Below, one piece after another: positions 16,640 through 55,239 of a DNA stretch of 64,000 nucleotides. The stretch's first letter is position 1, and each line of letters opens with the position of its first letter. The DNA comes from Escherichia phage vB_EcoM_ESCO47: sequence record OM386662.1. One strand, given 5' to 3'. The notes beneath the pieces are model-generated. The model was not told where the DNA came from. It saw only the letters and a list, made by a program, of their open reading frames with translations, and made no database searches. Both the position numbers and the translations under genes were made by a program.

Positions 16640-16870
16640 ATGTCTACTGAAACTATCGAAAAACTGCAGTCCGAAATCGTTACTCTGAAATCTCGTATTC
16701 TTGATACCCAGGACAAAGCTACGGCTATCCAGCAGGAATCTCAGCTTCTTGGTAATGCATTGGCTAAAATTGCTAATCTGGTCGGTATCACCGGTGAATC
16801 TGTTAAAGTTGATGATCTGGTAGAAGCGGTTCGTTCCCTGGTTGAAGATTCTACTGAAGAAGCTGAATAA
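16640..16870 (+). CDS. 57A: Tail fibre assembly chaperone gp57A
   Basis: 76 aa coiled-coil MSTETIEKLQSEIVTLKSRILDTQDKA... like T4 gp57A. Confidence 0.8.
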   Translation: MSTETIEKLQSEIVTLKSRILDTQDKATAIQQESQLLGNALAKIANLVGITGESVKVDDLVEAVRSLVEDSTEEAE

Positions 16871-17326
<456 letters not shown>

Positions 17327-17338
17327 TTTCACAAACCA

Positions 17339-17379
17339 GTTTACAATGTTATAGGGCTATGTTATAGTAGTCCTATCAA
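17339..17379 (+). promoter_or_regulatory. T4-type early promoter
   Basis: GTTTAC -35, ~17 bp, TGnTATAGT extended -10, conserved CCTATCAA start region. Confidence 0.55.
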
Positions 17380-17405
17380 AACAAAACCAAATTAAAGGAA
17401 ATAAA

Positions 17406-17717
17406 ATGAAAACTTATCAAGAATTTATCGCCGAAGCTTCTGCTGCGCCAAAGACATTCATTATTAATACTCAGGTAGGTCTTGACGATGAGTATGCGGA
17501 TGCAATTCTGAAGTCACTTGCTAAGAACGGCGTTGAAGTAATCGCTTCGGACTTTAAGAAAGGGGCTTCCGAGATGTTTATTTCTATAACTAAAGGATCT
17601 AAAGCTAAGATCAAATCATCGTTCGGAGTTGCTCGCACCGATCAAATCGACAGACATGACTTTAAACAAACCGGTGTTAAACGACAGAACACAATTGCAT
17701 CACGTGGAATAAAATAG
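17406..17717 (+). CDS. Internal head protein (IpI-like) with capsid targeting sequence
   Basis: N-terminus MKTYQEFIAEA = T4 internal-protein capsid targeting sequence with LxE prohead-protease site; own early promoter. Confidence 0.7.
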   Translation: MKTYQEFIAEASAAPKTFIINTQVGLDDEYADAILKSLAKNGVEVIASDFKKGASEMFISITKGSKAKIKSSFGVARTDQIDRHDFKQTGVKRQNTIASRGIK

Positions 17718-17730
17718 TTTCACAAACCAT

Positions 17731-17771
17731 GTTTACTTTTAGATGGGGTAGTGATACTATTACCCTATCAA
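17731..17771 (+). promoter_or_regulatory. T4-type early promoter
   Basis: GTTTAC ... TGATACTAT ... CCTATCAA. Confidence 0.55.
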
Positions 17772-17820
17772 AACAAAACATCCAAATGGAAACTAAAATG
17801 AAAACATATCAAGAATTTAT
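17752..17820 (+). repeat. 69-bp direct repeat (promoter, leader and first codons of an internal-protein gene), copy 1
   Basis: Identical to 18095-18163. Confidence 0.8.
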
Positions 17821-18070
17821 CTCCGAATCCAGCCTTAATGAAGAAGTAAAAATTAACAAACCCGTTAAGGCTATTATCGATAATATAAACTATCTTTATA
17901 ACATCGATCTTACAAACTATATATTGATAGGCAATAAACGGAACTTTTTTACATTTGATATCTCGGAACTTGACCAGAATCAAATCAATAATATTGAACG
18001 CTTTGCTAATGACAAAGGGTTACGCCACGAGACAGCCGGCTATAAAAAATATGCAATTTATCTAAAATAA
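17798..18070 (+). CDS. Internal head protein family member (capsid targeting sequence)
   Basis: Start set at MKTYQEFISE (ORF-track start 17729 is upstream); 69-bp leader repeat shared with next gene. Confidence 0.65.
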   Translation: MKTYQEFISESSLNEEVKINKPVKAIIDNINYLYNIDLTNYILIGNKRNFFTFDISELDQNQINNIERFANDKGLRHETAGYKKYAIYLK

Positions 18071-18073
18071 ATT

Positions 18074-18114
18074 GTTTACAACGGGCTCTAGTGGTGATAC
18101 TATTACCCTATCAA
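18074..18114 (+). promoter_or_regulatory. T4-type early promoter
   Basis: GTTTACAACGGGCTCTAGTGGTGATACTATTACCCTATCAA. Confidence 0.55.
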
Positions 18115-18163
18115 AACAAAACATCCAAATGGAAACTAAAATGAAAACATATCAAGAATTTAT
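18095..18163 (+). repeat. 69-bp direct repeat, copy 2
   Basis: Identical to 17752-17820; adjacent 44-bp promoter block 18071-18114 also recurs at 18366-18409. Confidence 0.8.
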
Positions 18164-18365
18164 TGCAGAAGCTAAAAGACATGAAGATGAACTGCCTTTT
18201 GTTTCAAAAACCGTTGTTGGAACATTGGCTGATTTTAAAAAAATTCCTAATGATAAACTTGCTAAATTGGTTGGTTCTATCAGTGAAAAAGGTGGCAAGG
18301 TCACATTTACTGCTCAAGGCACAGCCAATCTTAAAAAACTTTTGAAAGCAGCTGGTGTTGAATAA
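18141..18365 (+). CDS. Internal head protein family member (capsid targeting sequence)
   Basis: Start set at MKTYQEFIAEAKRHEDE; identical promoter/leader repeat as previous gene. Confidence 0.65.
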   Translation: MKTYQEFIAEAKRHEDELPFVSKTVVGTLADFKKIPNDKLAKLVGSISEKGGKVTFTAQGTANLKKLLKAAGVE

Positions 18366-18368
18366 ATT

Positions 18369-18409
18369 GTTTACAACGGGCTCTAGTGGTGATACTATTA
18401 CCCTATCAA
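18369..18409 (+). promoter_or_regulatory. T4-type early promoter
   Basis: Exact repeat of promoter at 18074. Confidence 0.55.
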
Positions 18410-18424
18410 CTTGAGGAGAATAAA

Positions 18425-18610
18425 ATGAAACGTTGTGAATTAATTAGAAATGTTACTGCACTGGTCGCTGTTACTGCTTTTGGTTTTAGCATGTTTGCAG
18501 GATTCATGCTCGATATGCTTTCAACTTCCGAGAATATAATCTCTTTAGTAGTGGCATTTTTAATTGGTTCAATCTCTTTTGTTATGGATAAAATCTCTAA
18601 AGGTGGCTAA
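18425..18610 (+). CDS. Small hydrophobic membrane protein
   Basis: Start at MKRCEL with GAGGAG RBS; two predicted TM segments. Confidence 0.5.
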   Translation: MKRCELIRNVTALVAVTAFGFSMFAGFMLDMLSTSENIISLVVAFLIGSISFVMDKISKGG

Positions 18611-19017
18611 TGAACGTTGAATATTATGTATATGCGGATTATGAAAATAACCCGTCTAAAGATGAAGATAACCGTTTAGGCGTTGATCCTTTTGATTCTC
18701 CTGGTGCAGCTTGGCAATGGATTGAAAGCACTGATATTCCATATCGCTATATTGAAGTTGTTGACCAGGTTGGTAATAAGTATCCTAAGGAAGCATACGT
18801 CCCTTCAGGTAAGGTGAATTTTCTTTTGTTCGCCGGTGATAACTATTATCCACGTGGCGGCTATACCGATTTAATCGCTAAAGCATTTTCTGAAGACACA
18901 TTACGTGAAATCATTAAAGAAAACGAGAATAAGCCGCGATACGGTTCTGATCGTTTCGACTGGTGGCAGATTGTTAATGCCATCACCCATACTATTGTTG
19001 ATGAGGGTCAAGCATGA
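18610..19017 (+). CDS. Hypothetical protein
   Basis: 135-aa ORF, TAATG coupling to upstream gene; no recognisable domain. Confidence 0.5.
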   Translation: MNVEYYVYADYENNPSKDEDNRLGVDPFDSPGAAWQWIESTDIPYRYIEVVDQVGNKYPKEAYVPSGKVNFLLFAGDNYYPRGGYTDLIAKAFSEDTLREIIKENENKPRYGSDRFDWWQIVNAITHTIVDEGQA

Positions 19018-19298
19018 TTCTTTATGCTAAAGTATCATCCATTGAAAATGGATATAAAGGCGACCAAGATGCAGCAAAACAGTTGATTGATGTCTATGGT
19101 ATTTTAACATGTTTTGAAGTTGAAAAGGTTTATATCGACCGTTCATCTTCACAAGTCAAATTGATTTGGGAAGACCGTAAATTCAACACGGTTAATTTTG
19201 ATTTCTTTATTGAAACTGAATCAGGCCCAGTTGAATACGACATCTTCAAGAATCCTTTAGGACTGGATTGCATTCAGAACACATACACAATATGGTGA
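19014..19298 (+). CDS. Hypothetical protein
   Basis: 94-aa ORF, ATGA-coupled; no recognisable domain. Confidence 0.45.
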   Translation: MILYAKVSSIENGYKGDQDAAKQLIDVYGILTCFEVEKVYIDRSSSQVKLIWEDRKFNTVNFDFFIETESGPVEYDIFKNPLGLDCIQNTYTIW

Positions 19299-19330
19299 GA
19301 AATTGTTTTACTGACAGTAAAAATGATTAA

Positions 19331-19357
19331 TTTGCTTTAAGAATTATGTGTTATTAT
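19331..19357 (+). promoter_or_regulatory. MotA-dependent middle promoter candidate (upstream of tRNA cluster)
   Basis: MotA box TTTGCTTTA, 12 bp, -10 TATTAT. Confidence 0.45.
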
Positions 19358-19418
19358 TAATAAGTACCCTCTATTACCAAAGGTTCTTCCCTCAAAGAGC
19401 CTTTCATAATAGAATTAT

Positions 19419-19493
19419 GGCCCTTTAGCTCAATGGGAGAGCTGTCAGCTCATAACTGATAGGTAGCTGGATCGAAACCAGCAAGGGTCACCA
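19419..19493 (+). tRNA. tRNA with CAU anticodon (Met or lysidine-modified Ile)
   Basis: Manual cloverleaf: acceptor GGCCCTT/AAGGGTC, D-arm GCTC..GAGC, anticodon loop CTCATAA, T-stem GCTGG/CCAGC, 3' CCA encoded. Confidence 0.75.
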
Positions 19494-19497
19494 ATTT

Positions 19498-19569
19498 GGA
19501 TGCATAGCTCAGTGGTAGAGCAGTTGACTGTTAATCAATTGGTCCATGGTTCGAATCCATGTGTGTCCG
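19498..19569 (+). tRNA. tRNA-Asn (GUU anticodon)
   Basis: Manual cloverleaf: D-loop AGTGGTA, anticodon loop CTGTTAA, T-arm CATGG-TTCGAAT-CCATG; acceptor with G-U pairs; no encoded CCA. Confidence 0.7.
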
Positions 19570-19576
19570 CAAATTA

Positions 19577-19652
19577 CGAGGCATAGCTCAGAAGGAAGAG
19601 CAAGGACCTTCTAAGTCCTAGGTCGTAGGTTCGATCCCTACTGTCTCGACCA
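19577..19652 (+). tRNA. tRNA-Arg (UCU anticodon)
   Basis: Manual cloverleaf: acceptor CGAGGCA/TGTCTCG, anticodon loop CTTCTAA, T-loop TTCGATC, CCA encoded; T4 also carries tRNA-Arg(UCU). Confidence 0.75.
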
Positions 19653-19813: not shown

Positions 19814-19842
19814 AGCCCCTTCCGAAAGGTTGGGGCTTTTTT
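19814..19842 (+). terminator. Intrinsic terminator after tRNA/small RNA region
   Basis: AGCCCC-TTCCGAAAGGTT-GGGGCT followed by TTTTTT. Confidence 0.7.
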
Positions 19843-19843
19843 G

Positions 19844-19851
19844 TATAAATA
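19844..19851 (+). promoter_or_regulatory. T4 late promoter
   Basis: TATAAATA immediately after terminator, 36 nt upstream of ORF 19887. Confidence 0.55.
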
Positions 19852-19886
19852 TAGTAAACAATAAACCTACTTTCTAAGGACCATCA

Positions 19887-20507
19887 ATGTATACCTTTAA
19901 TGAATTTTTAGCCGAAACGGAAGTAATCACCGAAGCCGGTGTACGTATGACAAAAGAGAAATGGCAAGCTGCTTACGACGCTATTTCTGGTACAAAAACT
20001 AGTACAGAGTTTTTCAAAAACGTTCAAGCCATGTACGGTATCGACACTTCCAGCCAAAAAGAATATTACAGAGCTTCTAAAGCATTCAAAGATATTGTTA
20101 GTGGTGGTGTTTCTGCTAAATCAGGTTCGCCTAAAGTAAAACCTGCTCCTACCATTCCTAAACCTGCGTCCCCTAAAGCAAAACCTGAGCCTAAGCCGGA
20201 AGTAAAAGCAACTCCTAAAGCTCCTGCTCTTAAGTTTGATACTTCTAGCCTGGAAAAAAAATATAAACAACTATCTTCGCTTGTTCGTGATATTGAATCT
20301 GATACATCTTCACTCGTTCGTGAATTCAATAGTCTTCGTAATGGCCAACATATCAACAACCTTGATACCCCAGACCTTTATCGTCTTTATTTGACTATCG
20401 AAGGTTTGAAGTACACTCAACCACTTCATGATGAGATTAAAGAAAAACTTCGTCAAGCAGGTCGTTTGGCTGCTGACGCTGCTCAGTATGCAAAAACTCG
20501 TAAGTAA
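19887..20507 (+). CDS. Hypothetical protein with CTS-like N-terminus and Pro/Lys-rich linker
   Basis: MYTFNEFLAETE resembles the capsid targeting sequence; KPAPTIPKPASPKAKPEPKPE linker; late promoter TATAAATA upstream. Confidence 0.55.
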   Translation: MYTFNEFLAETEVITEAGVRMTKEKWQAAYDAISGTKTSTEFFKNVQAMYGIDTSSQKEYYRASKAFKDIVSGGVSAKSGSPKVKPAPTIPKPASPKAKPEPKPEVKATPKAPALKFDTSSLEKKYKQLSSLVRDIESDTSSLVREFNSLRNGQHINNLDTPDLYRLYLTIEGLKYTQPLHDEIKEKLRQAGRLAADAAQYAKTRK

Positions 20508-26865: not shown

Positions 26866-27098
26866 GTATAGCAATTTACATTAAGTCAGAATCATGTGAT
26901 AGTTATCTGTACACATACGATAAAGATGTGTCAGAAGAAAAAATCAAAGACGACCTTAATATGGACCTTGATATGTTCTGTCCTATTGCAGATTACAAAC
27001 TTGCGGTCTCTAATAGTGAAAGTCCATCTAAAGAAACGCGCATTGAAGAATTTATGTCCGAATTAATGGCCAAATCATGGAACAGAGATGATGAGTAA
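26862..27098 (+). CDS. Hypothetical protein
   Basis: ATGA-coupled start at MSIAIYIKSE. Confidence 0.45.
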   Translation: MSIAIYIKSESCDSYLYTYDKDVSEEKIKDDLNMDLDMFCPIADYKLAVSNSESPSKETRIEEFMSELMAKSWNRDDE

Positions 27099-27546
27099 GA
27101 AAAATAAAGTGAAAGAGCTATCAGCCGGTATTATTTTCCTTACCGAAGATAAAGAGTTATTCATGGGGCGTGTAACTGGTTCTCGTCCTAAAGGTGCATT
27201 AGCTCATCGGTGGGATATTCCTAAAGGCCGTGTCGAACCTGGCGAATCTCCTATTGAAGCCGCTATTCGTGAATGCGAAGAAGAAACTGGGTTTACACAG
27301 TATGATCCGGCCTTCCTGAAAGATCTAGGTGAACATCGATACTCAGATAATAAGAATATTCATCTGTTCTATTATACGATCCCTGTAGAGCACGAGCAAT
27401 TCAGACACAGTGTTTGTAGTGCTTATCATACATTCCCTGATGGAACTTCTATCCCAGAATTTGATGCATTTGCACTAATTAAACCGAGTCAATGGGAATA
27501 TGTAATGGGTAAATCTTTATATAAGGTGCTCACTGCCATTCTGTAA
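27088..27546 (+). CDS. nudE: Nudix hydrolase NudE
   Basis: Nudix box GESPIEAAIRECEEETGF; immediately upstream of e as in T4 (e.1). Confidence 0.85.
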   Translation: MMSKKNKVKELSAGIIFLTEDKELFMGRVTGSRPKGALAHRWDIPKGRVEPGESPIEAAIRECEEETGFTQYDPAFLKDLGEHRYSDNKNIHLFYYTIPVEHEQFRHSVCSAYHTFPDGTSIPEFDAFALIKPSQWEYVMGKSLYKVLTAIL

Positions 27547-27553
27547 TTAATAA

Positions 27554-27580
27554 ATACCTCCTATAAACGTGGGAGGTATT
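27554..27580 (+). promoter_or_regulatory. RBS-sequestering hairpin with embedded late-promoter-like box upstream of lysozyme e
   Basis: Perfect 8-bp stem ATACCTCC / GGAGGTAT; 3' arm contains the SD GGAGG; loop TATAAACGTG. Confidence 0.65.
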
Positions 27581-28075
27581 ATGAATATATTTGAAATGCT
27601 TCGTAATGACGAAGGTCTTAGACTGTCTTTATACAAAGACACTGAAGGCTTTTGGACGATTGGCATAGGCCATTTAGTAACAAAGAACCCGTCTTTAGCC
27701 GTAGCTAAAGCTGAACTTGACCGAATGATAGGTCGTAAATGCAACGGTACAATTACACTTGATGAGGCTGAAAAGCTATTTAATGAAGACGTTGATAAAG
27801 CCGTTCGCGGAATCTTGGGTAATGCTAAACTAAAACTGGTTTATGATTCTTTAGATGCGGTGAGACGTTGTGCATTAATAAATATGGTCTTCCAAATGGG
27901 TGTAGCAGGCGTCGCAGGTTTTACTAATTCTCTTCGTATGCTTCAGCAGAAACGTTGGGATGAGGCAGCAGTAAACCTTGCCCAGAGCAAGTGGTACCGT
28001 CAGACGCCTAATCGCGCAAAACGTGTGATTGCTACCTTTAAAACTGGTACATGGACCGCGTATAAAAATCTATAA
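27581..28075 (+). CDS. e: Endolysin (T4 lysozyme, gene e)
   Basis: [32 protein letters not shown]... near-identical to recalled T4 lysozyme; start set at MNIF (ORF-track start 27569 upstream). Confidence 0.95.
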
Positions 28076-28079
28076 AGTT

Positions 28080-28113
28080 GTTTACTTTGTCCTGTGACCA
28101 TGATACTATATCC
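28080..28113 (+). promoter_or_regulatory. T4-type early promoter
   Basis: GTTTAC ... TGATACTAT. Confidence 0.5.
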
Positions 28114-28115
28114 AT

Positions 28116-28193
28116 AGTTACTTGAACAGACAAATCACTAATTAAAATATTTACATTTAGAACTCATATGAAAACATATAAAGAATTTATCGC
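28116..28193 (+). repeat. 78-bp direct repeat (leader and CTS codons), copy 1
   Basis: Matches 28602-28679 with one mismatch. Confidence 0.8.
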
Positions 28194-28566
28194 AGAGAAT
28201 GTAATTCCTGCATCTAAAGAACTTTTGGTGACGTTTGAATCCGAAGAGTTCACCGAAGAACTGAATGAGAACCTGACTACTGCCACACCTCAGGTTATCC
28301 GTGTTCGTAACGCCCTGCAGTCAGGCATGCCGGCCGGTGTCTCTAAGACCATGAAGTTGGCATTCACTACTTCTAATAACGAAGACTTTGGCAACGGTAT
28401 CGCTATGAACACTGGGCAGTATTATGTTGAGTGGAACGGTGAAACCGGCACGGCTAAGATTCGTCAGACACGTGCCGCTGGTGGCAAAATGCTGGACGTT
28501 AAACTAAACGTTAAAGAGAAAGACGTTGTAGCTCTGTTCAAGAACTGGATGAAATCTTACAAATAA
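28168..28566 (+). CDS. Internal head protein (IpIII-like position) with capsid targeting sequence
   Basis: N-terminus MKTYKEFIAEN; position after e as T4 ipIII. Confidence 0.65.
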   Translation: MKTYKEFIAENVIPASKELLVTFESEEFTEELNENLTTATPQVIRVRNALQSGMPAGVSKTMKLAFTTSNNEDFGNGIAMNTGQYYVEWNGETGTAKIRQTRAAGGKMLDVKLNVKEKDVVALFKNWMKSYK

Positions 28567-28600
28567 GTTTACATCTCCTAGAATTGTGATAGTATATCTA
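28567..28600 (+). promoter_or_regulatory. T4-type early promoter
   Basis: GTTTAC ... TGATAGTAT. Confidence 0.5.
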
Positions 28601-28601
28601 C

Positions 28602-28679
28602 AGTTACTTGAACAGACAAATCACTAATTAAAATATTTACATTTAGGACTCATATGAAAACATATAAAGAATTTATCGC
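28602..28679 (+). repeat. 78-bp direct repeat, copy 2
   Basis: Matches 28116-28193 with one mismatch. Confidence 0.8.
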
Positions 28680-29229
28680 TGAAGCTTCTGTAGCAAAAGC
28701 CCAAGGCATTAATAAAGACGAGTGGACTTACCGCGGAAATGGCTTTGACCCTAAAACAGCTCCTATCGAACGGTACTTAGCTACAAAGGCTTCCGACTTT
28801 AAAGCCTTCGCTTGGGAAGGACTTCGCTGGCGTAACGATCTAAATATTGAAGTTGACGGACTTAAATTTGCCCATATTCAAGATGTTGTTGCTAGTAACT
28901 TGGACGCAGCTTTTGTTAAAGCTGACGGTGACCTTCGTCGCTGGAATTTAAAACTATTCTCTAAACAGAAAGGTCCGGTGTTTGTGCCTAAAGCTGGTAA
29001 ATGGGTTATTGATAATAAATTAGCTAAGGCTGTCAACTACGCTGGTCTTGAATTCGCCAAGCATAAATCAAGATGGAAAGGTCTTGATGCAATGGACTTC
29101 CGTAAAGAATTTGCCGATGTTATGACTAAAGGCGGCTTTAAGGCAGAAATAGATACCTCTAAAGGTATGTTTAAAGACGCTAATATTCAGTACGCGTATG
29201 CTGTTGCTAATGCAGCCCGTGGTAATTAA
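28654..29229 (+). CDS. Internal head protein (IpII/IpIII-like) with capsid targeting sequence
   Basis: N-terminus MKTYKEFIAEA; 78-bp leader repeat shared with previous gene. Confidence 0.65.
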   Translation: MKTYKEFIAEASVAKAQGINKDEWTYRGNGFDPKTAPIERYLATKASDFKAFAWEGLRWRNDLNIEVDGLKFAHIQDVVASNLDAAFVKADGDLRRWNLKLFSKQKGPVFVPKAGKWVIDNKLAKAVNYAGLEFAKHKSRWKGLDAMDFRKEFADVMTKGGFKAEIDTSKGMFKDANIQYAYAVANAARGN

Positions 29230-29267
29230 TAAGGCCTATACGGCTTATTTACATTTAAAGGAAACAT

Positions 29268-29570
29268 ATGAAAACATATCAAGAATTTATTACTGAAGCG
29301 CGAGTGAGTGCAGGTAAATTAGAAGCCGCTATAAATAAAAAGGCCCATTCATTTCATGATTTGTCCGATAAAGACCGTAAGAAACTTGTAAGCCTTTATA
29401 TTGACAAAGAGCGTATTCTCGCTCTTCCTGGCGCTAATGAAGGTAAACAGGCCAAGCCTTTGAATGCTGTCGAAAAGAAAATTGATAACTTTGCTTCTAA
29501 ATTTGGTATGTCTATGGATGACCTTCAGCAAGCGGCTATCGAAGCAGCTAAAGTAATTAAAGGTAAATAA
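29268..29570 (+). CDS. Internal head protein family member with capsid targeting sequence
   Basis: N-terminus MKTYQEFITEA. Confidence 0.65.
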   Translation: MKTYQEFITEARVSAGKLEAAINKKAHSFHDLSDKDRKKLVSLYIDKERILALPGANEGKQAKPLNAVEKKIDNFASKFGMSMDDLQQAAIEAAKVIKGK

Positions 29571-29572
29571 CA

Positions 29573-29606
29573 GTTTACTTTCTCCTAGAATTGTGATATT
29601 ATATTC
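29573..29606 (+). promoter_or_regulatory. T4-type early promoter (upstream of denV remnant)
   Basis: GTTTAC ... TGATATTAT. Confidence 0.5.
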
Positions 29607-29627
29607 ATAATTACTTGGGTGGGTAAA

Positions 29628-29756
29628 ATGACTTATATTAATTTGACTTTAGTATCTGAATTTGCTGATCAACATTTAATCGCTGAATATTGTGAATTAC
29701 CATGTGGTTTTGGTGTAATTCGTAAATACGTGGCAAAAATATTTACATTCAAATAA
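29628..29756 (+). pseudogene. denV: denV (endonuclease V, pyrimidine-dimer glycosylase) remnant, truncated after 42 codons
   Basis: [25 protein letters not shown] aligns to recalled T4 Endo[26 protein letters not shown] but Arg3, Arg22, Arg26 are replaced and the frame stops at codon 43. Confidence 0.6.
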
Positions 29757-29902
29757 AATGGGAACAACCTGGACCTCATGATTCTATGAGGGATTCCCGC
29801 CGACCTGTAATAAGGTCGAGCGCAATGCGGTAATGAGTTTACATAGCGAGTCGAAGGACCTAACATGTGCCAAGGAATGGCCCAAACCTAGAGAGAAATA
29901 AT

Positions 29903-54526: not shown

Positions 54527-55239
54527 TGAGGCTTATGTTTACAGTTATCAAAATGCCAACGATGCATATTAGCAGGGATCCCTATTTTATCGCAATGAGG
54601 ACATTTAATTTTCTTGTCCTCTTTTTTCTTTCTGTTAGGATTTGATTTACAGAATTTTATATGCGGCTTTAACGCCGATAACTTAGTAGTTAAGCCACAA
54701 AACGGGCAAGAATCTTCTTTCCAAATTTTCGTGGCCATGGTTTTAATTATTTTATCCTTTGTTTCTTGATCAAGTTTTACTATTTTAGGCGTAGGGCCTT
54801 GTTTACAGTTATCAAAATGCCAACGTCTCATGTTTCCTTCAGTGCCAGTTAAACCGCAGTGTGGACATGTAATCTTTGGTTTATTTTTTGCAGACTCGGA
54901 CATTTTCTTACGAGTTTCAGCAGTGAATTCTTTGTTCTTTTGAACTTCTTGATTCTTACGTCGAAGCCATCCAAATAATTTGTTTTTGCTTCTATCTGCT
55001 TTAGGAGATGAGATAGTCATCATACGAGCAGCATATATTAAAGAGGCATTATCTGGATGGATTTTTACTAGCAGTTGATGTGCCAAATAATGTTCTTCTG
55101 GTGTTAAATCTACTAAGTTTAAAGCATCATCACTTCCACCTAAACATTGTGGTATAATGTAATGACGTTCTGTATAACCATCTAAACTTCTTGATTTAGC
55201 ATTGGTGATAAGCTTTTCGTATATTGAGTTATAATTCAT
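54523..55239 (-). CDS. Free-standing HNH homing-endonuclease-like protein with triple zinc-finger repeats
   Basis: N-terminal HNH-like ERHYIIPQCLGGSDDALNLVDLTPEEHYLAH; three CPHCG...WHFDNCK repeats; opposite strand to neighbours; AAGGA RBS. Confidence 0.7.
   Translation of the reverse strand: MNYNSIYEKLITNAKSRSLDGYTERHYIIPQCLGGSDDALNLVDLTPEEHYLAHQLLVKIHPDNASLIYAARMMTISSPKADRSKNKLFGWLRRKNQEVQKNKEFTAETRKKMSESAKNKPKITCPHCGLTGTEGNMRRWHFDNCKQGPTPKIVKLDQETKDKIIKTMATKIWKEDSCPFCGLTTKLSALKPHIKFCKSNPNRKKKEDKKIKCPHCDKIGIPANMHRWHFDNCKHKPH

What the first reader, a model, noticed from the sequence alone, without database searches (positions are those of the whole stretch)
17752..18409. Exact direct repeats spanning promoter, leader and first 10 codons of internal-protein genes
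A 69-bp block (17752-17820 and 18095-18163) and a 44-bp promoter block (18071-18114 and 18366-18409) are identical, and a 78-bp block recurs at 28116-28193 and 28602-28679 with one mismatch. Such repeats provide recombination substrates for swapping or duplicating downstream effector domains while keeping expression and packaging signals, a plausible diversification mechanism.
Basis: seen in the sequence. Interest (0 to 1): 0.55.

Follow-up and report, generated by a model that had tools for sequence, protein, structure and literature searches.

The report
Shuffled injected-protein gene cassettes, T4-like phage
The repeats are the shared promoter, leader and head-targeting signal of small injected "internal protein" genes in a T4-like phage; related phages show these blocks have been crossover points for gaining, losing and reordering such genes, a phenomenon described for these same two loci since 1994.

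Summary
The three repeat pairs are real, and two extend slightly: 70 nt exact, 49 nt exact, and 78 nt with 1 mismatch inside a 96-nt pair at 95%. They lie in the two classical internal-protein (IP) loci of a T-even phage: 57B–[Ip7-like, Ip9-like, Ip8-like]–trna.4 and e–[132-aa IP, IPIII, IPII]–denV remnant. Each block combines a T4-type early promoter, often a palindrome, a Shine-Dalgarno site, and the 5' part of the 10-codon capsid-targeting sequence (MKTY[Q/K]EFIxE). Every repeat pair has a natural single-copy counterpart in a relative: RB15/G4498 for the 70-nt block, NC-G for the 49-nt block, T4 for the e→ipIII block. Homology breakpoints against about 80 related loci fall almost only in these blocks (76/79 and 44/45). 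Cassette order is permuted among phages. The block upstream of the Ip8-like gene is an exact chimera of two neighbouring blocks joined in a 20–21-nt shared core. This matches published work (Repoila 1994; PeSL papers 2010 and 2014; CTS work of Black's lab). Only the Ip7–Ip9–Ip8 order and its chimeric junction seem unrecorded. The instance is clean and instructive, but interest is low.

The parts
16871..17326 (+). 57B / Acb1 homologue; conserved left anchor of IP locus 1
   Evidence: Pfam Acb1 2e-57. Synteny with T4 57B.
17327..17405 (+). Promoter/leader block of the Ip7-like gene: -35 TTTACA 17340-17345, TG-extended -10 TATAGT 17363-17368, palindrome 17351-17376, SD GGAAA
   Evidence: (z -2.9).
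17406..17717 (+). Ip7-like internal protein gene (103 aa; CTS MKTYQEFIAE)
   Evidence: 91% identical to RB15 Ip7. phrog_2667 internal head protein.
17718..17797 (+). Promoter/leader block of the Ip9-like gene: -35 TTTACT 17732-17737, -10 TACTAT 17755-17760, 12-bp palindrome 17742-17769
   Evidence: (z -5.4).
17751..17820 (+). 70-nt exact repeat, copy 1 (-10, leader, SD, codons 1-8 of the CTS)
17798..18070 (+). Ip9-like internal protein gene (90 aa; CTS MKTYQEFISE)
   Evidence: 82% identical to RB15 Ip9. phrog_7673.
18066..18114 (+). 49-nt exact repeat, copy 1 (stop codon, -35 TTTACA 18075-18080, TG-extended -10 TACTAT 18098-18103, core)
18094..18163 (+). 70-nt exact repeat, copy 2. Together with 18066-18114 it forms the chimeric block 18066-18163.
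18141..18365 (+). Ip8-like internal protein gene (74 aa; CTS MKTYQEFIAE)
   Evidence: 92% identical to RB15 Ip8 and 95% to the T4_ev240 homologue. phrog_8765.
18361..18409 (+). 49-nt exact repeat, copy 2 (promoter of trna.4)
18425..18610 (+). trna.4 homologue (61 aa); conserved right anchor of IP locus 1
   Evidence: Synteny with T4 trna.4. phrog_1692.
27569..28075 (+). Lysozyme e; left anchor of IP locus 2
   Evidence: Homology with T4 e. Related loci.
28101..28196 (+). 96-nt repeat copy 1 (95% to copy 2; contains the 78-nt block 28116-28193). The promoter -35 TTTACT 28081-28086 and -10 TACTAT 28104-28109 lie at or just before its start.
28168..28566 (+). 132-aa CTS-bearing gene (MKTYKEFIAE), unnamed IP candidate
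   Evidence: phrog_15461, unknown function. Body found in only 44 phage records. Absent from T4.
28587..28682 (+). 96-nt repeat copy 2 (contains the 78-nt block 28602-28679)
28654..29229 (+). ipIII homologue (191 aa)
   Evidence: 93% identical to T4 IPIII.
29268..29570 (+). ipII homologue (100 aa)
   Evidence: 94% identical to T4 IPII.

Best explanation
The window comes from a T-even (Tevenvirinae) phage, and the repeats are the common 5' ends of internal-protein (IP) gene cassettes. Each cassette has four parts: a T4-type early promoter (TTTAC[A/T]-N17-TGnTA[C/T][T/A][A/G]T), often with a palindrome around the -10 box; a short leader with a Shine-Dalgarno site; a 10-codon capsid-targeting sequence (MKTY[Q/K]EFIxE, which directs the protein into the prohead core and is cut after Glu10 by the prohead protease gp21); and an unrelated, small, mostly basic body that is injected with the DNA. 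In T4 these bodies are specific inhibitors of GmrSD-type restriction enzymes. Because unrelated genes share these functional 5' blocks, the blocks give 20-130 bp of homology to the very active T4 recombination machinery. Crossovers within them, between co-infecting phages or between misaligned copies in concatemers or excised circles, insert, delete, replace and reorder whole IP genes without disturbing expression or packaging. In this genome the Ip9-like unit (343 bp) is bracketed by the 70-nt repeat, the Ip8-like unit (295 bp) by the 49-nt repeat, and the 132-aa gene unit (486 bp) by the 96-nt repeat. The exact chimeric block 18066-18163 marks a recent crossover in the 20-21-nt core shared by the two block types. 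Shown here: the repeats, cassette anatomy, homology to named IPs, single-copy counterparts, breakpoint clustering and permuted orders. Inferred: promoter activity, packaging and cleavage, homologous (not site-specific) recombination, and the anti-restriction role of the bodies.
For: The repeats are exact. T4 gene order is reproduced: 2-3-1-57A-57B-IP-trna.4 ... nudE-e-IP-IP-denV. Five of the six genes match named IPs: Ip7 91%, Ip9 82%, Ip8 92-95%, IPIII 93%, IPII 94%, and they hit PHROG internal head/virion protein families. All six keep Y4, F7, I8 and E10, the residues reported as important for targeting and processing, and the gp21 motif L/I-x-E (PMC9026906). The promoters match the published T4/PST consensus TTTACW-N17-TAYWAT (PMC4122927). 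Single-copy counterparts exist for all three pairs. For NC-G, the HSPs 16871-18114 and 18361-19294 overlap by exactly 49 nt. For RB15 and G4498, the HSPs ending at 17820 and starting at 18091 overlap by 73 nt. For T4, the HSPs 27098-28196 and 28552-29241 overlap by 126 nt. Within +-10 nt of the blocks, 76 of 79 HSP ends fall in locus 1 (expected 42%) and 44 of 45 in locus 2 (expected 28%). Cassette orders differ: window Ip7-Ip9-Ip8; NC-G Ip7-Ip9; G4498 Ip9-Ip7-Ip8; RB15 Ip5-Ip9-Ip7-Ip8; VR5 and QL01 types Ip8-Ip9; T4 IpI; L003 and L005 none. There are 24 body families in about 30 loci. The same leader sits on different bodies in different genomes. Other promoter-block pairs in the window are only 60-86% identical, against 95-100% at the IP loci. 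The gene bodies share no similarity beyond the CTS. Published precedent: PMC2839356, PMC4122927, PMC3012670, PMC12373910.
Against: There is no direct evidence of ongoing recombination in this phage population, only comparative footprints. Breakpoint statistics use non-independent related loci and approximate BLAST HSP ends, and block boundaries coincide with gene boundaries, so some clustering would arise from any gene-wise mosaicism. Averaged over genomes, leaders within one genome are no more alike than orthologous leaders (0.75 vs 0.77), so homogenisation is episodic rather than general. No TATAAATA late promoter lies directly upstream of the six IP genes, so how enough protein is supplied at prohead-assembly time is not explained from sequence. 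The prohead protease gene is outside the window. The 132-aa gene is called an IP only from its CTS.
Confidence: 0.85

Rival explanations
1. The blocks are alike only because promoter, ribosome-binding site and targeting peptide are under the same purifying selection. They play no role in recombination, and the cassette differences among phages arose by other means.
For: All block elements are plausibly functional. Fourteen similar promoters occur in the window. The codons used in the CTS are the common AT-rich ones.
Against: Constraint alone gives only 60-86% identity among the other promoter blocks, whereas the IP-locus pairs are 100%, 100% and 95-99% identical, including spacer and leader positions with no known function. 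The block 18066-18163 is an exact two-parent chimera. Relatives carry single-copy versions exactly at the repeat. Leaders and bodies are uncoupled between genomes.
Confidence: 0.05
2. Exchange is site-specific or structure-specific rather than general homologous recombination. A dedicated protein recognises the palindrome/-10 core (TGATACTATTACCCTATCAA or the GGGC...GCCC-like arms) and catalyses integron-like cassette insertion and excision as mini-circles.
For: Significant palindromes enclose the -10 box in about 6 of 14 promoter blocks. The chimeric junction lies in the 20-21-nt core. The unit sizes of 295, 343 and 486 bp are at or just below the ~400-1400 bp range of the published PeSL mini-circles. 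Arbiol et al. raised this possibility.
Against: Junctions in relatives are spread over the whole block: the promoter start (18361-18365), the core (18114/18095), the SD/ATG (17411/18415 in L003 and L005; stop-ATG fusions in L006-L011) and CTS codon 8 (17427, 17438, 17820). Half of the promoter blocks lack the palindrome. The two loci contain only IP genes, so there is no room for a recombinase gene, and no recombinase domain was seen in the neighbouring ORFs tested.
Confidence: 0.08
3. The clusters arose by tandem duplication of an ancestral IP gene followed by divergence of the bodies. The repeats are the slowly diverging remnants of those duplications.
For: The genes are tandem and co-oriented, of similar size, and share 5' ends.
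Against: The bodies share no detectable similarity beyond residues 1-17, yet the flanking blocks are 100% identical, which is incompatible with a single divergence clock. Each body has close orthologues (82-95%) in other phages in different orders and neighbourhoods.
Confidence: 0.02

Closest known systems
Polymorphic internal-protein (IP) loci of T-even phages (Repoila, Tetart, Bouet & Krisch 1994, EMBO J 13:4181; GenBank Z35082 for RB15)
   Same: The two genomic positions are the same (57B-trna.4 and e-denV). The gene families are the same (Ip7, Ip8, Ip9, IPII, IPIII). The common promoter/leader/targeting-peptide ends and the variable number and order of genes between phages also match (described in PMC2839356 and PMC4122927).
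   Different: The order Ip7-Ip9-Ip8 and its exact chimeric Ip9->Ip8 junction were not found in 50,697 phage records, IMG/VR or JGI metagenome contigs. There is an additional 132-aa CTS gene between e and ipIII, which a minority of phages share. I could not read the 1994 paper itself.
PeSL (promoter-early stem-loop) cassettes mediating modular shuffling in T4-type phages (Arbiol et al. 2010, PMC2839356; Comeau et al. 2014, PMC4122927)
   Same: These are short composite regulatory cassettes (AT-rich region, early promoter, SD, ATG) between small non-essential genes in hyperplastic regions. They flank indels and replacements between relatives. The promoter consensus TTTACW-N17-TAYWAT of the T4/PST type is met. 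Direct repeats bracket single-gene units at or just below the size of the published mini-circles.
   Different: The stem-loops here overlap the -10 box instead of lying upstream of the promoter. They are present in only about half of the blocks and have no T-run, so terminator function is doubtful. The homology also extends into the coding sequence (the CTS), which gives a second crossover zone. Arbiol et al. themselves call the IP-associated elements analogues, not homologues, of PeSLs.
T4 capsid targeting sequence (Mullaney & Black 1996; reviewed in PMC9026906 and PMC3012670)
   Same: The peptide is the 10-residue N-terminal MKTYQEFIAE, identical to that of T4 IPII/IPIII in two of the window genes. 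Y4, F7, I8 and E10 are kept in all six, and the gp21 cleavage motif I-x-E is present.
   Different: Packaging and cleavage are not tested for this phage. Variants occur at position 5 (Q/K) and position 9 (A/S/T).
Integron gene cassettes / anti-defence gene hotspots (e.g. anti-CRISPR loci)
   Same: These are arrays of unrelated small accessory genes exchanged as units at a fixed genomic hotspot, and the genes probably counter host defences (PMC12373910).
   Different: There is no integrase and no attC-type site. Each cassette carries its own promoter and a shared coding leader. Junctions are dispersed, as expected for homologous recombination.

Membership tests
T4-type internal proteins (CTS-bearing, gp21-processed, injected head proteins) | N-terminal ~10-residue capsid targeting sequence with the residues important for targeting (positions 4 and 7) | tested here: met
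   All six ORFs start MKTY[Q/K]EFI[A/S/T]E, with Y4 and F7 invariant. Residue roles come from PMC9026906.
T4-type internal proteins (CTS-bearing, gp21-processed, injected head proteins) | Prohead-protease (gp21) cleavage motif L/I-x-E at the end of the CTS | tested here: met
   I8-x-E10 is present in all six. The motif is taken from PMC9026906. Actual cleavage was not tested.
T4-type internal proteins (CTS-bearing, gp21-processed, injected head proteins) | Sequence homology of the mature part to a named IP | tested here: met
   Met for five of the six: Ip7 91%, Ip9 82%, Ip8 92-95%, IPIII 93%, IPII 94%, with PHROG internal head/virion protein families. Not met for the 132-aa protein, which hits only phrog_15461 of unknown function and is an IP candidate by CTS and position alone.
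T4-type internal proteins (CTS-bearing, gp21-processed, injected head proteins) | Location in one of the two IP loci (57B-trna.4; e-denV) | tested here: met
   Synteny with annotated T4 NC_000866.
T4-type internal proteins (CTS-bearing, gp21-processed, injected head proteins) | Physically present in the mature head and injected with the DNA | not testable with these tools
   This needs virion proteomics or injection assays.
PeSL cassettes (Arbiol 2010; Comeau 2014) | Strong early promoter; T4/PST-type consensus TTTACW-N17-TAYWAT | tested here: met
   Sites: TTTACA-17-TATAGT (17340), TTTACT-17-TACTAT (17732), TTTACA-17-TACTAT (18075, 18370), TTTACT-17-TACTAT (28081). All are TG-extended. There are 14 sites against 0.56 expected.
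PeSL cassettes (Arbiol 2010; Comeau 2014) | Stem-loop just upstream of the promoter that acts as a transcription terminator | tested here: not met
   The palindromes overlap the -10 box rather than preceding the promoter. They are significant in only about 6 of 14 blocks. Zero terminator-like sites were found in 16800-19400 and one weak site in 27500-29900. Arbiol et al. call the IP-associated elements analogues, not homologues.
PeSL cassettes (Arbiol 2010; Comeau 2014) | Shine-Dalgarno and start codon of the downstream gene at the 3' end of the element | tested here: met
   GGAAA or GGAG lies 5-8 nt before each ATG.
PeSL cassettes (Arbiol 2010; Comeau 2014) | Located in hyperplastic regions, at the borders of insertions, deletions or replacements between related phages | tested here: met
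   Single-copy counterparts exist in NC-G, RB15/G4498 and T4, and breakpoints cluster in the blocks.
PeSL cassettes (Arbiol 2010; Comeau 2014) | Recombination between neighbouring elements yields excised mini-circles | not testable with these tools
   This needs inverse PCR or long-read sequencing. Predicted circles are 295, 343, 486 and 638 bp.
Integron-like site-specific cassette system | Dedicated site-specific recombinase and a single defined crossover site | tested here: not met
   The loci contain only IP genes. No recombinase domain was seen in the neighbouring ORFs tested. Junction positions are dispersed over promoter, core, SD/ATG and CTS.

The most novel reading that the evidence does not exclude
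The exact chimeric block and the perfect flanking repeats would mean that cassette insertion in this lineage is very recent. They would also mean that crossovers are focused on the 20-21-nt -10/initiation core (TGATACTATTACCCTATCAA) embedded in a palindrome, that is, a structure- or protein-guided, semi-site-specific 'phage integron' that moves injected anti-restriction genes as 300-500-bp circles, rather than plain homology-driven exchange.
Probability: 0.08. Interest if true: 0.6.

Novelty: already known. Interest (0 to 1): 0.15.

Why it matters
Internal proteins are injected with the phage DNA. In T4, each one disarms a specific GmrSD-type restriction enzyme (PMC12373910), so the set a phage carries helps decide which strains it can infect. 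The shared promoter/leader/targeting block lets any small gene be expressed, packaged and delivered, and also lets it be exchanged between phages. This window shows the process unusually cleanly, with exact flanking repeats, a chimeric junction, and natural 'empty-site' relatives for all three repeat pairs. That is useful for annotation: the three unnamed genes can be called Ip7-, Ip9- and Ip8-like, and the 132-aa and 206-aa ORFs can be flagged as further packaged-protein candidates. It is also useful for phage engineering and host-range prediction. It does not change current understanding.

Tried and rejected
Pfam gave no family for any of the six IP bodies. PDB sequence searches of four of them gave nothing meaningful, so effector functions stay unknown. 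The terminator scan found none in locus 1, so I rejected calling the blocks bona fide promoter-terminator PeSLs. I tested whether leaders are generally homogenised within genomes (concerted evolution). The mean within-genome identity of 0.75 is not higher than the orthologue identity of 0.77, so only specific recent exchanges are supported. I looked for late promoters in front of the IP genes and found none; TATAAATA occurs only at 19844, before another CTS-like ORF, and inside ipII. I looked for homing endonucleases or recombinases in neighbouring ORFs as a rival mobility mechanism and found none. I searched for the exact chimeric junction elsewhere. It is absent from IMG/VR and JGI metagenome contigs, and a relaxed pattern only recovered ordinary Ip9->trna.4 junctions. 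The Repoila 1994 paper is not held, so its content is cited only through later papers and its GenBank record. My first two CTS regexes missed T4 IpI and the G4498 Ip8, which have variant N-termini, so the cassette table undercounts divergent IPs. I rejected an assembly artefact because the repeats (<=96 nt) are shorter than typical reads and each flank is colinear with independent genomes.

Full report
**Observation.** The three repeat pairs exist as described. 17752-17820 equals 18095-18163 exactly over 69 nt, and over 70 nt with one more base on the left. 18071-18114 equals 18366-18409 exactly over 44 nt, and over 49 nt from 18066/18361. 28116-28193 differs from 28602-28679 at one of 78 positions and lies within a 96-nt pair at 95%. 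A repeat search of the whole window shows that all long direct repeats but one are early-promoter blocks. Ordinary pairs of such blocks are only 60-86% identical, so the IP-locus pairs stand out. There are corrections of detail. The 70-nt block contains the -10 box but not the -35, and it covers 7 2/3 codons rather than 10. The two cluster-1 repeats overlap in a 20-21-nt core (TGATACTATTACCCTATCAA) that is present three times. As a result, 18066-18163 is an exact chimera: its left part equals the promoter in front of trna.4, and its right part equals the leader and start of the upstream gene.

**What the region is.** The window is from a T-even phage. Its baseplate module is about 83% identical to Mosigvirus and Tequatrovirus genomes. 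Its gene order reproduces annotated T4 in reverse orientation: 2-3-1-57A-57B-ipI-trna.4-trna.3-trna.2 ... nudE-e-ipIII-ipII-denV. Six + strand ORFs start MKTY[Q/K]EFI[A/S/T]E. Three lie between 57B (16871-17326; Pfam Acb1) and trna.4 (18425-18610). Three lie after lysozyme e (27569-28075).

Against the 1994 GenBank record of phage RB15 (57B-Ip5-Ip9-Ip7-Ip8-tRNA.4) and against T4, the identities are as follows:
- 17406: Ip7-like, 91%
- 17798: Ip9-like, 82%
- 18141: Ip8-like, 92-95%
- 28654: IPIII, 93%
- 29268: IPII, 94%
- 28168: an unnamed 132-aa protein (phrog_15461)

Beyond residue ~17 the bodies are unrelated to each other. The mature parts are 7-22 kDa and mostly basic. None has a Pfam family or a solved relative.

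**Anatomy of the repeated blocks.** Each block has a -35 TTTAC[A/T], a 17-nt spacer, and a TG-extended -10 TA[C/T][T/A][A/G]T (17340-17368, 17732-17760, 18075-18103, 18370-18398, 28081-28109). This is the consensus published for T4/PST early-promoter cassettes, TTTACW-N17-TAYWAT (PMC4122927). Fourteen such sites occur, all on the + strand between 17 and 48 kb, against 0.56 expected. A palindrome of 8-12 bp encloses the -10 box in about 6 of the 14. The one upstream of the Ip9-like gene folds with z = -5.4. None is followed by a T-run. Next come a short leader, a Shine-Dalgarno site and the ATG.

The first 10 codons encode the capsid targeting sequence. In T4 IPIII these 10 residues suffice for incorporation into the prohead. 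Residues 4 and 7 matter for targeting and residues 8 and 10 for processing, and gp21 cuts after L/I-x-E (PMC9026906; PMC3012670). Y4, F7, I8 and E10 are invariant in the six genes.

They do, for every pair.
- *The 49-nt pair.* Against NC-G (Ip7-Ip9-trna.4) the window aligns as 16871-18114 and 18361-19294. The two alignments overlap by exactly 49 nt in NC-G. NC-G therefore has one copy of the block where the window has two copies around the 295-bp Ip8 unit.
- *The 70-nt pair.* Against RB15 and G4498 (…Ip7-Ip8…) the alignments end at 17820 and restart at 18091, overlapping by 73 nt. These phages have one copy of the block where the window has two copies around the 343-bp Ip9 unit.
- *The 96-nt pair.* Against T4 the alignments 27098-28196 and 28552-29241 overlap by 126 nt. 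T4 has one e→ipIII block where the window has two around the 486-bp unit of the 132-aa gene.
- *Locus 1 against T4.* Homology stops at codon 8 of the CTS (17427) and resumes at the first bases of the 49-nt block (18364).

Over about 30 loci anchored on 57B and about 50 anchored on e, HSP ends within the loci fall within +-10 nt of the intergenic-plus-CTS blocks in 76 of 79 cases (expected 42%) and 44 of 45 cases (expected 28%). These loci are not independent, and blocks coincide with gene borders, so the p-values overstate the case. No breakpoint lies inside an IP body.

Cassette content and order vary widely:
- Locus 1: Ip7-Ip9-Ip8 in the window; Ip7-Ip9 in NC-G and phiE142; Ip9-Ip7-Ip8 in G4498; Ip5-Ip9-Ip7-Ip8 in RB15; Ip8-Ip9 in the VR5 and QL01 types; IpI alone in T4; no IP at all in L003 and L005, which join 57B to trna.4 at the SD/ATG.
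- Locus 2: N-III-II in the window; III-II in T4; III-N in JS98; other orders also occur.
- I counted 24 body families in all.

The same leader is attached to Ip9 and Ip8 in the window, to Ip7 and Ip9 in NC-G, and to Ip8 in G4498, so leaders and bodies recombine independently. Only 1 of 898 and 3 of 837 matching phage records cover at least 80% of the two loci.

**Mechanism.** The most economical reading is homologous recombination within the shared functional blocks. The junctions are dispersed over the promoter start, the -10 core, the SD/ATG and CTS codon 8, as expected for homology-driven exchange. The loci hold no recombinase gene. T4 recombination is reported to need fewer than 50 bp of homology (Singer et al. 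1982, as cited in PMC2839356).

The window's arrangement can be produced in two ways. One is a single crossover in the 20-21-nt core between an NC-G-like parent (…Ip9-P_trna.4…) and an RB15-like parent (…leader-Ip8…). The other is integration of a circular Ip8 or Ip9 unit. The perfect identity of both repeat pairs implies the event, or a later conversion, is recent compared with the 5-20% divergence from all known relatives.

A structure-guided or site-specific component (palindrome, core) cannot be excluded but is not needed. Tandem duplication with divergence is rejected because the bodies are unrelated while the flanks are identical. 'Constraint only' is rejected by the exact chimera and the single-copy counterparts.

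**Comparison with what is known.** This is the known polymorphism of the two IP loci of T-even phages. Arbiol et al. state that Repoila et al. [quoted passage not shown] Comeau et al. [quoted passage not shown] Mini-circle formation between neighbouring PeSLs was shown experimentally for RB49/phi1. Ip1, Ip2 and Ip3 are now known to inhibit distinct GmrSD restriction enzymes, and the two Ip loci are regarded as an anti-defence hotspot.

As to membership, the genes meet the sequence-testable criteria of T4-type IPs. The blocks meet the promoter, SD/ATG and indel-border criteria of PeSLs but not the upstream-terminator stem-loop criterion. They are therefore best called PeSL-like analogues, as the PeSL authors themselves say.

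What seems unrecorded is only this instance. The Ip9→Ip8 junction is not found contiguously among the best matches in 50,697 phage records. Its exact 40-mer is absent from IMG/VR and from JGI metagenome contigs.

**Verdict.** This is a very clean textbook example, useful for annotation, and of low interest as a discovery.

Noticed in passing
window 29628-29756: denV (endonuclease V) is reduced to a 36-codon N-terminal remnant, 75% identical to T4 denV residues 1-36. About 319 nt of T4 denV are missing and replaced by ~34 nt. The break lies at an AATATTTACATT motif that also occurs in the IP leaders at ~28145 and ~29245, hinting at another leader-mediated deletion.
   Followed up: partly
window 19815-20507: A 206-aa ORF (19887-20507, phrog_2280) starts MYTFNEFLAE. 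Its orthologues in relatives start with a canonical MKTYNEFLNE. It sits behind a strong hairpin+T-run terminator and a T4 late promoter TATAAATA (19844-19851). It is probably a seventh, late-expressed capsid-targeted protein.
   Followed up: partly
window 19419-19652: The tRNA cluster downstream of trna.2 has only three genes (Met, Asn, Arg), against 8 in T4 and 10 in G4498.
   Followed up: partly
window 16871-17326: The 57B homologue, annotated 'RNA ligase' or hypothetical in many records, matches Pfam Acb1 (anti-CBASS) at 2e-57. So the left flank of the IP locus is itself an anti-defence gene.
   Followed up: partly
window 29230-29267: The ipIII→ipII spacer lacks the early promoter block that T4 has at this position. 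Only a small GC hairpin (29232-29246) and the leader/SD remain, resembling the 'degraded PeSL' state described in the literature.
   Followed up: partly
window 17340-48119 (+ strand): Fourteen TG-extended early promoters all face the same way. Most are followed by a conserved (T)AGNCCTATCAA motif just after the -10 box, even where the 5' arm of the palindrome is missing.
   Followed up: partly
window 54536-54612 and 54800-54876: This 77-nt direct repeat pair at 73% identity, spaced 264 nt apart, is unrelated to the promoter family. It may mark two small paralogous genes.
   Followed up: no
L003 4526-4541; L005 3284-3300: Two metagenomic relatives join 57B directly to trna.4 with no IP gene at all. 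The junction lies in the ~16-nt SD/ATG sequence shared by the Ip7 leader and the trna.4 leader.
   Followed up: partly
L077 3898-3901 (vB_EcoM_005): In this relative the stretch corresponding to window 27979-28185 is missing: the end of e, the promoter, the leader and the first codons of the 132-aa gene. That suggests an e/IP fusion, a deletion, or an assembly problem.
   Followed up: no
L122 (LR597657.1, T4_ev240) 824-1751: A phage labelled 'T4_ev240' carries Ip5-IpI-Ip8 between 57B and trna.4, with an IpI protein identical to T4's. T4 itself has only IpI there, so this is a T4-like backbone with extra IP cassettes.
   Followed up: no
window 17786-17797 and 18129-18140: An in-frame ATG (METK-) lies 12 nt upstream of the MKTY start in both copies of the 70-nt block. 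It overlaps the SD and is probably not used, but it could mislead gene callers.
   Followed up: no
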